From: Scyliorhinus canicula
Lineage: Eukaryota
NCBI RefSeq assembly: GCF_902713615.1
Contig: NC_052170.1
Location: 4,216,001 to 4,280,000, forward strand
Direction of reading: 5' to 3'
Length of the DNA: 64,000 bases
Below are positions 6,201 through 9,200 of the stretch, piece by piece. How positions within the stretch are numbered: position 1 is the first letter of the stretch; every line of letters starts with the position of its first letter. The position numbers were made by a program.

Positions 6201-9200
6201 GGGGCTTTTCACAGTAACTTAATTGCAGCATTAATGTAAGCCTCCTTGAGACAATAATAAAGATTATTAAATTAAATAGCAGCCGATGTGCTAAATGTCC
6301 CACCAAACTCAGAACAGAAGTGGTGAACTTGCCAACATTCGCCCCACAACTGTCTCTTCCATTCGGAAAAGGGGTTTTAATGCAAATAGGGTCCAAACCA
6401 AAGACCATTTTCACTGGGATCCAGCACATCAAAGCTGAGATCAGGTCACAGACAATCCAAGTGTAGTGCTGAGGGTGTGCTGCACTGCCAGCACAGCAGT
6501 CTTTCAAATGAGATTAATGATAAATAAAAGCAAAATACATTGGCTGTGCTGGAAATCTAAAATAACAGAAAATGTTGGAGACACTCAGGTGTGGCAGCAC
6601 AACAGGGTTAATGTTTCAAAACCATATGACTGTTCAGTCATGTGGGCTTAAAACACAGCTACCCTCAGGGGAATGAAAGATTTCAAAATAATATTTGAAG
6701 GTGTGTGTTGTGCATTTATCCCTCAAATCACCTGATCATTCCCACTGCTGTTTGTGGGATTATTGTCTGCAATGTGGGTGGTGCAGTGGTTAGCACTGTT
6801 GCTTCACCGTTCCTGGGTCCCAGGTACGATTCCCAGCTTGGGTCACTGTCTGTGTGGAGTTTGCACGTTCTCCCCGTGTCTGCGTGGGTTTCCTCCAGGT
6901 GCTCCAGTTTCCTCCCAGTCCAAAGATATGAAGGTTAGGTGGATTGGCCGGGCTAAATTGACCCAGTGTTGGGTGGGGTTACTAGGATAGGGTGGAGGTG
7001 GTCTGGGCTTAAGCAAGGTGCTCGTTCTAAGGGCCAGTGCAGACTCAATGGGCCGAATGGCCTCCTTTGCACTGTAAATATGAACTTTCAAATCAGGATA
7101 GTTTTGAATGTATAAAAGAGGTTTCAAGGTGCTTGTAGGAATGCCCAGAGCAGTGAGCCATGTCCCTAGTGGAGCTCAAATCCCACTTCAGGACTACATT
7201 TAAAAATTTGTCCAAATAGGTGGATTACCAGCTTGTGAATCTTTCCAATGAACCAGTAGCAGACAGCAAGAGGGTGGGAGAGATTCCATGTAATGGAATG
7301 TTGGCACAGTGGTTAGCACTACTGCCTCAGTCCTGGGGACCAGAGTTCAATTCCAGGCTTGGGCGACTATCTGGCTGTGTGGAGTTTGCACATTCTCCCC
7401 TTTCTGCGTGGGTTTCCTATCACACAGTGCAACGGTGTGCATGGATTGGCCATGATCAATGTGCAGGGGAGTGAGGCTAGGTGGGGGTGCTCTTTCAGCA
7501 GGGTCAGTACAGCCCTGATGGGCCAAATGGCCTCCTTCTGCACTGTAGGGATTCTTCTACAATCACTATTCAAACATCAACACACTAATGGAAAAATATG
7601 GCCACAGCAACTAGGGACTTCAAGTGAACACTAAAGGCACTACACAAAAATGCAGTTATAAACCACAGATCCCTTCTCAAAAAGGAAGATTAAAACAGCA
7701 GTCCTTTACTGCAGAGATCACCTCTCTGACCCAGGCTGTTAACGAGAGACCCAAAATAATGAGAATGGTGTAACAGGAAGATCCTGCAACCCAGGGGAGG
7801 GGGAAGTAAGAGATTAAAATCTTCAGAATAGCACTTGCTAATAAACTCTACTGGCACACACACACACACATCACAAACAACCTAGTTAGTTAGACTTATT
7901 TTTCTTTATTGGCTTCAGAAGCAAGCTACCAATTTAGAAATACAGAGTTTATATAAAATGTAAACCAAAAAAAATGACAGTTTTTTGAATTATAAAAAAA
8001 AAGTCCACAGTCTGAATGGTGTGTGTGGAAGGGCGGGGGAATATCCCTCACAGTCTGGGCTCAGTTCCTGATCCAGTATTAATCCTGTTGTGCACATTTG
8101 TGAAATGGCCTCGTCACTGCACTGGGCCGAGTGCAGGAAACCAAGTCAGTGCTCTGGGCTCCCTCCCTCTCGGAGCCTTTCCTGTTGCACAAAGCCCAGA
8201 TAGCTGGTCCCTCCTGACCCACTTCCAACGTCTTAGGGCTGGGGGCCACCCCAATCCTGCAGAGAATTCCCTGGGGTGGGATTCAGCCCCTTTCTTGTTC
8301 ACAGCTCCGACACTCTGCCAGCTGCTCTCTCTCAGTAAGCCACAATGGCTCGCACCCAGATTCCCAGTTTGCTGAGGACTCGGTCCCGGCAGATTCCCGG
8401 GGAATCGCTCTGCCCTTTGTTCAGGAGGCCGCTGAATCCGGAGCTGAACACATTGACCAGGCTGGGATTGCTGGAGCTTTCCTGGTCCGGGGCGGCTTCC
8501 CGGGAACAATCCTCCTCCAGCCGGGCTCTCTTCCTGGGCAGACATTCCAGAGGCTCCCTCTGATCCCAGCCCTTCCTCCGCTTCCTGCTCCTGCTTCCCG
8601 CCGCTTCCCGGGGCTCCTGGCCGGGGCAGAGACAGCCATTCCCGGCCAGAGGCTCAGCCACAGGGCGCTGGGCAAACTCAGACACTTTGTCCCGGCCGCA
8701 ATGGAGACATTCCCGGCGCTGGATACAGTCCTCCTGGGATTGGACAGAGTGGGAACCCGGCTGGATACATTCCTTTTGGGATTGGATACACTCCCGGGGC
8801 TCGATACAGTCCTTCTGGGATTGGATACATTGCTGGAACTGGATACATTTTTCCTGGGATTGGATACATTCCGTTTGGGATTGGATACATTCCTGAGATT
8901 TGATACCTTTTTCCTGGGATTGGATACATTGGGACTGGGCCGCACACTCCTCGCCTTTCGGCCTCGCCTCCAGTCCTCCTCCCTCCGCAGCCTCCAGCTC
9001 CATGGCCGGGGCCTCGGCCTGGCTCCCCCGGCCGGCCTCCTGCTGCTCGGCTCCAACATTCAGATAAACATCGCGGGCGCTGCGCAGCACCAGCGACAGT
9101 AAGAGGCTCCTGTGCAGCCGGATGCCTCCCCTCTGCAACCGGGAATTGTACATCTTCCCCAGGGCCACAGCCATCACCCTCTGAGCTTCCAGCTTCACAT

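What the first reader, a model, noticed from the sequence alone, without database searches (positions are those of the whole stretch)
8698..8946. In-frame Cys/Gln/SQ-rich repeat inserted into IER2
Seen: ~83 codons of 18/21-bp units ([39 protein letters not shown], ... ending CLHC). There is a Cys every 6-7 residues and eight SQ dipeptides. The units have diverged but stay in frame with no stop. Established: clustered SQ/TQ motifs are ATM/ATR/DNA-PK targets, and IER proteins act as PP2A-B55 adaptors through the N-terminal domain. I do not recall such a repeat in mammalian IER2/IER5. Inference: a lineage-specific phospho-, redox- or metal-responsive module, or a tolerated coding VNTR.
Basis: partly seen in the sequence, partly recalled or inferred. 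Interest (0 to 1): 0.68.

Follow-up and report, generated by a model that had tools for sequence, protein, structure and literature searches.

The report
Cysteine-rich coding repeat in shark IER2
A catshark copy of the growth-response gene IER2 carries a real in-frame cysteine-rich tandem repeat in its floppy middle part; sharks and skates share it in very different copy numbers, so it looks like a tolerated, fast-changing linker rather than a proven signalling module.

Summary
Window 8698-8946 (minus strand) is residues 97-179 of a single-exon 300-aa IER-family ORF (8332-9234). It holds 12 units of 18 or 21 bp plus a terminal CLHC, with 12 Cys and 8 SQ.

The gene is the IER2 orthologue. This rests on the N-terminal IER domain, the basic cluster, the C-terminal match to hare IER2, and neighbours of STX6/10, BTB and TRM1 type.

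The repeat is not catshark-specific. Sharks, skates and sawfish carry arrays at the same place with the same C-I-(Q/E/D) core. Unit tails are species-specific and there are 0 to 28 array cysteines; chimaera and bony vertebrates have none.

The SQ cluster occurs essentially only in Scyliorhinus, so the ATM/ATR reading is not supported as a conserved feature.

AlphaFold2 predicts disorder. Whole-unit indels separate two Scyliorhinus species. Cys and Ile codons show no silent variation within the array, which points to recent homogenisation.

Best reading: a weakly constrained coding minisatellite in the IER2 linker. A cysteine-based function of the conserved core is not excluded.

The parts
8332..9234 (-). 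Single-exon IER2-type ORF of 300 aa. The probable true start is the second ATG at 9204, which gives 290 aa.
   Evidence: ORF. Pfam IER PF05760, E 6.5e-38, over residues 11-300. All orthologues fetched that are complete at the N-terminus start at the position of M11. The context at 9204 is GCCATGG, while the ATG at 9234 has C at -3 (read).
9022..9204 (-). N-terminal IER helix-loop-helix, residues 11-71. In human IER2/IER5 this region binds PP2A-B55.
   Evidence: Match to PDB 8uo5_D (IER5), E 2.2e-16, residues 9-59. AF2 helices 13-33 and 39-71 with pLDDT 57-77. 59% identity to hare IER2 over residues 11-66. The B55 role comes from passages of PMC11446282 and PMC11258296.
8698..8946 (-). The reported repeat: 12 units of 18/21 bp plus terminal CLHC, residues 97-179.
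   Evidence: AF2 pLDDT 35-45 with no secondary structure.
8698..8709 (-). Terminal CxxC (CLHC) that closes the array. It is C[IL]HC in all five galeomorph shark sequences, including the zebra shark, which has no array.
8521..8589 (-). Basic cluster RKRRK...KRARLEE, about residues 216-238. It looks like a bipartite nuclear localisation signal; that function is inferred.
   Evidence: Invariant K218, R219, P233, K235, R236, E240 in alignment A1 of 19 sequences.
8338..8391 (-). C-terminal helix, residues 282-299, ending VRAIVAY.
   Evidence: AF2 helix 282-299. Aligns to the C-terminus of hare IER2 and to all rows of A1.
9324..9331 (-). TATA-like element, ATATAAAA on the gene strand, about 90 bp upstream of the first ATG.
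   Evidence: Read. Function is inferred.
9528..9611 (.). Two CArG boxes (CCATATATGG at 9528-9537, CCATATTTGG at 9602-9611) upstream of the gene. They are candidate serum response elements.
   Evidence: The window-wide count is not above chance (6 found, 5.27 expected). The point is only that two lie 74 bp apart in this promoter. Function is inferred.
7905..7910 (-). AATAAA polyadenylation signal, about 425 nt after the stop codon.
   Evidence: Read. Inferred.

Best explanation
The stretch is a real, imperfect coding minisatellite. It lies in the intrinsically disordered linker of the catshark IER2 orthologue, between the N-terminal helix-loop-helix (the PP2A-B55-binding part in human IER2/IER5) and the basic cluster plus C-terminal helix.

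It is the local form of an array that sharks, skates and sawfish all carry at this position. The array grows and shrinks by whole units through slippage or unequal exchange, and it is homogenised within each lineage. Only in-frame lengths survive, because the basic cluster and C-terminal helix downstream must still be translated.

It most likely works as a flexible spacer of variable length, not needed for core IER2 function. The SQ richness is a by-product of the unit variant that spread in Scyliorhinus. The Cys-Ile-(Gln/Glu/Asp) core probably carries some selective value, but no activity is shown.

Shown here: the anatomy, the family membership, the distribution across species, the predicted disorder and the whole-unit indels. 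Inferred: the mutational mechanism, the spacer role and dispensability.
For: - Anatomy: 12 units of 18/21 nt.
- Disorder: pLDDT 35-45 and no secondary structure across residues 96-203 in an AF2 model built from 19 aligned sequences. The Atlas's own model has mean pLDDT 0.49.
- Copy number, counted as array cysteines (Cys with another Cys 5-8 residues away): window 11, S. torazame 11, white shark 28, epaulette shark 5, sevengill 3, zebra shark 0, skates 11-16, sawfish 2, unnamed sawfish-like P0016 4, stingrays 0-2, electric ray 0, chimaera 0. Hare and three teleosts have no C[ILVM][QEDH] unit.
- Unit tails are species-specific: SQEK in the window, PRD/SDSG in white shark, SPQ/AAE in skates. This is the signature of concerted evolution.
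- Window versus S. torazame: flanks are 93% (80 of 86) and 96% (116 of 121) identical. The array is 77% identical (55 of 71), with 18 gap columns that form three 6-residue gaps.
- Two Amblyraja isoform records differ by exactly one 12-residue double unit.
- Within the window's array, Cys is TGT in 11 of 12 codons and Ile is ATC in 10 of 10. Among the 11 inner units these two codons show zero synonymous differences, while the next codon varies CAA/CAG. The units look recently homogenised rather than held apart under long purifying selection.
- The surrounding DNA is minisatellite-prone: 12 other arrays cover about 8.6 kb of 64 kb (my sum of the coordinates).
Against: - The C-I-(Q/E/D) core is kept in lineages on both sides of the shark-batoid split, while the rest of the linker is barely alignable.
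- Ile follows 85 of 113 array cysteines, and Q/E/D sits at +2 in at least 104 of 113. These are my sums over the 12 sequences that have array cysteines. Units within a species are not independent.
- Pure neutral drift does not predict this. Some selection on the core is likely, and a plain spacer does not need cysteines.
- pN/pS over the five core codons is 0.47, which hints at some constraint. The sample is small and the pairs are not independent.
- No RNA evidence for the window's species was available.
- No DNA from other sharks was available, so no codon-level test across species could be made.
Confidence: 0.6

Rival explanations
1. The array is a functional multivalent cysteine module. 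Repeated [E/D/Q]-C-I-[Q/E/D] units would act as thiol-based redox or metal-ion sensors, or as a repeated docking motif. They would tune the stability, self-association or substrate choice of the IER2/PP2A-B55 adaptor, with copy number acting as an evolutionary dial.
For: - The Cys-Ile-(Q/E/D) core is conserved in sharks, skates and sawfish although tails and flanking linker have diverged.
- A C[IL]HC CxxC closing the array is present in 5 of 5 galeomorph sequences, even in the zebra shark, which has no array.
- Acidic or Gln residues precede most cysteines.
Against: - Arrays are reduced to one unit or lost in zebra shark, stingrays and electric ray.
- Units with Cys replaced by G, S, Y or R, or Ile replaced by N, V or A, persist and even spread. 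CNQPRD occurs 6 times in white shark.
- There is no silent-site variation at the Cys and Ile codons within the window's array.
- Apart from the terminal CLHC there is no CxxC, and no family other than IER matches.
- AF2 predicts no fold.
Confidence: 0.25
2. The array is an S/T-Q cluster domain that is phosphorylated by ATM/ATR/DNA-PK after DNA damage.
For: - The window's protein has 9 S/TQ, with 6 inside one 50-residue span. Four of them are SQE.
- This meets the definition of at least 3 in 50 residues. The same paper reports Glu enriched at +2 of phosphorylated sites (passages of PMC3564818).
Against: - The definition is met by only 3 of 17 cartilaginous-fish sequences.
- The congener S. torazame has 5 S/TQ against 9 in the window. 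White shark, zebra shark, sawfish and electric ray have none.
- The source paper itself says that conservation of the cluster in homologues is what raises confidence that it is real.
- The SQ comes from one unit variant (CIQSQ) that spread.
Confidence: 0.07
3. The array is not part of the mature protein. It would be an annotation or assembly artefact, or be spliced out of the mRNA.
For: - No transcript data for the window's species could be consulted.
- All sense frames are open through the array, so openness alone proves nothing.
Against: - The IER profile matches residues 11-300 in one frame, on both sides of the array.
- The array length is 249 nt, which is 83 codons.
- An independently assembled congener has a similar array, and the indels between the two are whole units.
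- Every elasmobranch gene model fetched keeps the region in the coding sequence.
- Two unnamed orthologues come from contigs of 1653 and 1484 bases, a length compatible with transcripts. This was not verified.
Confidence: 0.05
4. The array folds into a disulphide-braced beta-solenoid like the 12-residue Cys repeats of insect antifreeze proteins.
For: The skate orthologues carry a precomputed PF02420 label in the search table, and their period is 12 residues with Cys every 6.
Against: - For the window's protein, Pfam gives no hit other than IER even at E up to 1.
- AF2 shows no strands and pLDDT 35-45.
- IER2 is a nuclear or cytosolic protein in the literature read, where stable disulphides are not expected (inference).
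Confidence: 0.03

Closest known systems
IER2 of bony vertebrates (for example hare IER2, P0063; teleost ier2b)
   Same: - N-terminal helix-loop-helix: 59% identity over 56 residues.
- Basic KRRK...KRARLEE cluster.
- FSGLL motif and a C-terminus of VRAIVAY type.
- Neighbours of STX6/10, BTB (NACC1-like) and TRM1 type. This matches the human order IER2-STX10-NACC1-TRMT1 as I recall it; no call confirms the human order.
   Different: The central linker of hare and teleost IER2 has 0-4 Cys, no C-I-(Q/E/D) unit and no tandem repeat.
IER5 N-terminal domain bound to PP2A-B55 (PDB 8uo5)
   Same: Residues 9-59 match chain 8uo5_D at E 2.2e-16. PMC11446282 describes the IER2, IER5 and IER5L N-termini as almost identical helix-loop-helix B55 binders (passages).
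   Different: The structure covers only the N-terminal 74 residues. It says nothing about the linker, and the C-terminus of the window's protein matches IER2.
Coding minisatellites (VNTRs) in disordered protein regions
   Same: - Head-to-tail units of 18/21 bp.
- Whole-unit gains and losses between close species.
- Species-specific homogenised units.
- Predicted disorder.
   Different: A two-to-three-residue core with an invariant Cys is shared by lineages that split very long ago. Most coding VNTRs known to me (recalled) are much younger.
S/T-Q cluster domains of ATM/ATR substrates
   Same: The formal density criterion is met in the window and in S. torazame.
   Different: The cluster is not conserved in orthologues (3 of 17 sequences). 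No evidence of phosphorylation exists.
Metallothionein-type cysteine-rich metal binders
   Same: Cys-rich (12 of 83 residues), low in complexity and unstructured without ligand.
   Different: Cysteines are evenly spaced every 6-7 residues, not in CxC, CC or CxxC clusters. There is only one CxxC, and no metallothionein family matches. The typical metallothionein Cys content and spacing are recalled, not taken from a call.

Membership tests
IER family / IER2 orthologue | Match to the Pfam IER profile above its curated cut-off | tested here: met
   PF05760: 132.2 bits against a cut-off of 22.6, E 6.5e-38, residues 11-300 on profile positions 1-310.
IER family / IER2 orthologue | N-terminal helix-loop-helix homologous to the B55-binding element | tested here: met
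   8uo5_D (IER5), E 2.2e-16. AF2 helices 13-33 and 39-71. 59% identity to hare IER2. Actual binding to B55 was not testable.
IER family / IER2 orthologue | IER2-type C-terminal part (FSGLL motif and terminal VRA-VA-aromatic) rather than IER5 or IER5L | tested here: met
   A second BLASTP segment, residues 248-300 against hare IER2 176-236, E 4e-05. Alignment A1 agrees. All named non-cartilaginous hits in the top 120 are IER2, ier2b, hypothetical or unnamed. No IER5 or IER5L full-length sequence was compared directly.
IER family / IER2 orthologue | Conserved neighbourhood of IER2 | tested here: inconclusive
   The window holds exons of STX6/10-N (15385-15765 and 16618-16965), BTB (43843-44793) and TRM1 (55652-56059, 59456-59833, 62314-62500). 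That these are the neighbours of human IER2 is recalled, not tested.
IER family / IER2 orthologue | Immediate-early (serum-response) promoter | tested here: inconclusive
   Two CArG boxes lie 74 bp apart, 300-380 bp upstream of the ORF, with a TATA-like element. The window-wide CArG count is not above chance (6 found, 5.27 expected). No expression data exist.
Coding minisatellite / VNTR | Tandem head-to-tail units of roughly 10-100 bp | tested here: met
   TRF periods 21, 39, 60 and 81. 12 units of 18/21 nt.
Coding minisatellite / VNTR | Copy number varies between related species by whole units | tested here: met
   Three 6-residue gaps against S. torazame. 0-28 array cysteines across 17 cartilaginous-fish sequences.
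Coding minisatellite / VNTR | Length polymorphism within a species | tested here: inconclusive
   Amblyraja records X2 (290 aa) and X3 (278 aa) differ by one 12-residue double unit. This could be an allele or a modelling effect.
S/T-Q cluster domain | At least 3 S/T-Q within 50 residues | tested here: met
   6 within 50 residues. The definition is from passages of PMC3564818.
S/T-Q cluster domain | Cluster conserved in orthologues | tested here: not met
   Met in 3 of 17 cartilaginous-fish sequences. There are zero S/TQ in white shark, zebra shark, sawfish, electric ray and chimaera.
S/T-Q cluster domain | Damage-induced phosphorylation by ATM/ATR | not testable with these tools
   Needs a phospho-SQ blot or mass spectrometry in catshark cells.
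Metallothionein-like metal binder | Dense CxC, CC or CxxC clusters and a family profile match | tested here: not met
   One CxxC only. Cys spacing is 6-7 residues. No Pfam family other than IER at E up to 1.
LxCxE pocket-protein (RB) binding motif | [LIVM]-x-C-x-[DE] | tested here: not met
   0 matches in 21 of 21 sequences scanned.
Antifreeze-type Cys beta-helix repeat (PF02420) | Profile match and beta-solenoid fold | tested here: not met
   No such hit for the window's protein. The AF2 model has no strands. The label appears only as a precomputed tag on skate orthologues.

The most novel reading that the evidence does not exclude
The Cys-Ile-(Gln/Glu/Asp) units are an ancient, selected, multivalent cysteine motif specific to sharks, skates and sawfish. 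It would make the immediate-early PP2A-B55 adaptor IER2 responsive to redox state or metal ions, or give it a repeated docking site. Copy number, from 0 to 28 array cysteines, would serve as an evolutionary dial on that response. In Scyliorhinus the SQE-bearing unit variant would add DNA-damage-kinase input.
Probability: 0.15. Interest if true: 0.7.

Novelty: new variant of a known kind. Interest (0 to 1): 0.37.

Why it matters
IER2 is a conserved immediate-early adaptor for PP2A-B55, and the function of its central region is not defined in the papers I read.

A repeat with a cysteine core, kept across sharks and skates yet free to vary from none to 28 array cysteines, is a natural experiment. 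It shows how much a disordered linker in a signalling adaptor can change.

If the core proves to be selected, it would point to an unknown partner or chemistry of IER2. If not, it is a clean example of an old coding minisatellite maintained by concerted evolution in a genome region full of minisatellites.

Two full-text searches found no paper describing it: 'IER2' with 'shark', and 'IER2' with 'cysteine-rich' and 'repeat'. I judged this from titles and abstract starts only. The protein records themselves are already in public databases under automatic names.

Tried and rejected
- LxCxE (RB-pocket) motif: 0 of 21 sequences match. Rejected.
- Antifreeze-like beta-helix: no Pfam hit and no predicted strands. 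Rejected.
- Dispersed minisatellite family: the core motif occurs only in the array, plus one 3-mismatch site at 8271-8285. Rejected.
- Repeat-only protein search with names: only the window's protein and S. torazame, out of 51 candidates.
- Exhaustive search of 1.84 billion representatives with the 88-residue repeat: 9 hits at E up to 0.001. Two are IER proteins (white shark, S. torazame). Seven are unnamed, unrelated repeat ORFs with no IER part, so they are uninformative.
- Search for longer forms of 526-2000 aa: none scored among 6428 candidates, which is weak evidence against giant arrays.
- ESM Atlas by features: no usable hit. Its structure hits rest on a low-confidence model (pLDDT 0.49), so I disregarded them.
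- Bacterial promoter and terminator scan: nothing found, and it is not applicable to a vertebrate gene.
- Literature search 'coding minisatellite' or 'elasmobranch': badly chosen terms, nothing relevant in the 10 listed of 4,996.
Extra alleles or isoforms in the 90% clusters stayed unseen.
- Fold search and complex prediction: not used. The model of the array is too poor for a fold search, and I claim no binding partner.
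Full report
**What is there**

The window has no N. Its best-matching named proteins come from cartilaginous fishes. The closest is Scyliorhinus torazame at 82% identity, so I take it for a catshark, not for human sequence.

On the minus strand, 8332-9234 is an uninterrupted 300-aa ORF. Pfam places it in the IER family: PF05760, E 6.5e-38, residues 11-300, on both sides of the repeat in one frame.

The finding's coordinates 8946-8698 are residues 97-179. One search splits them into 12 units of 18 or 21 nt plus a closing CLHC.

TRF finds the array. 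Its 15-nt core is far more frequent than in shuffled sequence: 9 matches against 2.5 expected, and 0 of 100 shuffles reach 9.

Absence of stops is not evidence in itself, because the other sense frames and antisense frames are open too.

**Which gene**

- The N-terminal 50 residues match the IER5 chain of PDB 8uo5 and are 59% identical to hare IER2.
- The C-terminal 53 residues align to the C-terminus of hare IER2, including FSGLL and the last helix.
- All named non-cartilaginous hits in the 120 listed of 248 are IER2, ier2b or unnamed.
- I searched the neighbours exon by exon and built no joined model. They are exons of STX6/10 type at 15.4-17.0 kb, a BTB exon at 43.8-44.8 kb whose start reads like NACC1, and three TRM1 exons at 55.6-62.5 kb.
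- As I recall it, human IER2 lies next to STX10, NACC1 and TRMT1. That order comes from memory, not from a call.
- Database names for the shark orthologues are inconsistent: 'IER5-like', 'IER2-like' and 'uncharacterized'.
- Upstream lie a TATA-like element (9324-9331) and two CArG boxes (9528-9537 and 9602-9611). An AATAAA follows at 7910-7905. Together these fit a single-exon transcript of about 1.4 kb, which is an inference.
- Orthologues start at the second ATG (9204), which has the better context.

**Distribution**

I fetched 21 relatives. P0018, an unnamed 186-aa hit, was not fetched. Unnamed P0007 and P0016 were used in counts but not in alignment A1.

Every shark, skate and sawfish sequence with an array has it at the same place, between the acidic ME-E segment and the basic cluster. 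Every one has the same start of the unit, C-I-(Q/E/D).

Array cysteines, meaning Cys with another Cys 5-8 residues away:

| Sequence | Array cysteines |
|---|---|
| window | 11 |
| S. torazame | 11 |
| Carcharodon | 28 |
| Hemiscyllium | 5 |
| Heptranchias | 3 |
| Stegostoma | 0 (only RECIHC remains) |
| Amblyraja | 12 |
| Leucoraja | 11 |
| Rhinoraja | 16 |
| P0007 (unnamed) | 8 |
| Pristis | 2 |
| P0016 (unnamed) | 4 |
| Hypanus | 2 |
| Hemitrygon | 0 |
| Mobula | 0 |
| Narcine | 0 |
| Callorhinchus | 0 |

Hare, tarpon, pufferfish and mosquitofish IER2 have no such unit.

Summed over the 12 sequences that have array cysteines, Ile follows 85 of 113 of them. Q, E or D is at +2 in at least 104 of 113. 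These are my sums, and units within a species share ancestry, so they are not independent.

The rest of the unit is lineage-specific: SQEK in the window, PRD alternating with SDSG in white shark, and SPQ alternating with AAE in skates.

**How it changes**

Against S. torazame the flanks are 93% and 96% identical. The array is 77% identical, with 18 gap columns that form three 6-residue gaps.

Two Amblyraja records differ by one 12-residue double unit. That is either a length allele or a modelling effect.

Inside the window's array, Cys is TGT in 11 of 12 codons and Ile is ATC in 10 of 10. The 11 inner units show no synonymous difference at these two codons, while the next codon alternates CAA/CAG. 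Over five codons pN/pS is 0.47.

So the units look recently copied from each other. The array by itself cannot show long-term amino-acid selection.

The window is rich in minisatellites: 12 other arrays cover about 8.6 kb of 64 kb, and 7 of them have a period divisible by three.

**Structure**

AlphaFold2 with a 19-row alignment gives helices only at 13-33, 39-71, 259-265 and 282-299. Across the array pLDDT is 35-45. The Atlas's own model is equally poor. The array is best taken as disordered.

- *SQ cluster.* The density criterion of at least 3 in 50 residues (passages of PMC3564818) is met by the window (6), S. torazame (3) and P0007 (3), but by no other of the 17 cartilaginous-fish sequences. 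Five have no S/TQ at all. SQ is therefore a property of the CIQSQ unit variant that spread in Scyliorhinus, not of the array as such.
- *Redox or metal.* This is untested. The only CxxC is the closing C[IL]HC, which is present in all five galeomorph sequences.
- *Tolerated VNTR.* This is best supported.
- *Other leads.* I also checked and rejected an LxCxE motif and an antifreeze-like fold.

**What the literature gave**

Passages of PMC11446282 and PMC11258296 state that IER2, IER5 and IER5L bind B55 through the N-terminal helix-loop-helix and help PP2A dephosphorylate targets. Neither passage assigns a role to the central region.

Their supplements, which hold the IER2 truncation and alanine scans, were closed. 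They might bear on whether the linker matters.

Searches for 'IER2' with 'shark' and for 'IER2' with 'cysteine-rich' and 'repeat' listed nothing on this repeat. I judged this from titles and abstract starts only.

**Verdict**

This is a real coding minisatellite, common to sharks and batoids, in the disordered linker of IER2. Its core is unusually persistent and its copy number is very labile.

- Most likely it is a weakly constrained spacer (0.6).
- A specific cysteine-based function of the core is the main rival (0.25).
- The ATM/ATR reading is unlikely beyond Scyliorhinus (0.07).

**Unchecked**

- Transcripts and alleles of the window's species.
- DNA of other elasmobranch loci.

Noticed in passing
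window 18965-20250, 21841-23358, 26314-26953, 36172-36333, 37465-37827, 40505-41251, 44985-46335, 50051-50142, 52961-53324, 58603-59472, 60109-60858, 62471-62938: There are twelve further tandem arrays with periods of 23-126 bp and up to 47 copies. Together they cover about 13% of the window. A 33-bp unit recurs at 26.3, 45.0 and 60.1 kb, in both orientations judging by the consensus units.
   Followed up: partly
window, e.g. 9945-10140, 10901-11097, 16115-16353, 39085-39271, 43013-43214: A roughly 190-bp interspersed repeat gives 34 blastn matches including the query itself, at 75-95% identity and on both strands. It looks like a SINE. Its translation recurs in many spurious ORFs.
   Followed up: partly
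window 15385-15765 and 16618-16965 (+); 43843-44793 (-); 55652-56059, 59456-59833, 62314-62500 (+): Neighbouring genes: STX6/10-type syntaxin N-terminal exons, a BTB/POZ first exon (NACC1-like) and TRM1 methyltransferase exons.
   Followed up: partly
window 9324-9331, 9528-9537, 9602-9611: A TATA-like element and two CArG boxes 74 bp apart lie upstream of the IER2 ORF. This fits serum-response control of an immediate-early gene. It rests on sequence only.
   Followed up: partly
window 9204-9234 (-): The ORF's first ATG (9234) adds 10 residues that no orthologue has. The second ATG (9204) sits in GCCATGG and matches the orthologues' start.
   Followed up: partly
P0008 and P0009 (Amblyraja radiata isoform records): The two records differ by exactly one CIESPQCIQAAE double unit, 290 against 278 aa. 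This may reflect a length allele in the transcript data rather than splicing.
   Followed up: partly
P0008, P0009, P0010, P0011 (skate orthologues): These carry a precomputed PF02420 (antifreeze repeat) tag beside IER. It is probably a compositional match to the 12-residue Cys period. It was not re-scanned.
   Followed up: no
window 8698-8709 (-) and the same position in P0002, P0003, P0004, P0006: A C[IL]HC-G-x-D-x-VS element closes the array in all five galeomorph sequences. It survives in the zebra shark, which has no array. It may be the single-copy seed from which units were copied.
   Followed up: partly
alignment A1, columns about 130-140: All batoid sequences, including those without an array, share (L/F)MDCSAQ where bony vertebrates have PMDT/AMDT. 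The catshark's first unit, ECAAQSQ, resembles it.
   Followed up: no
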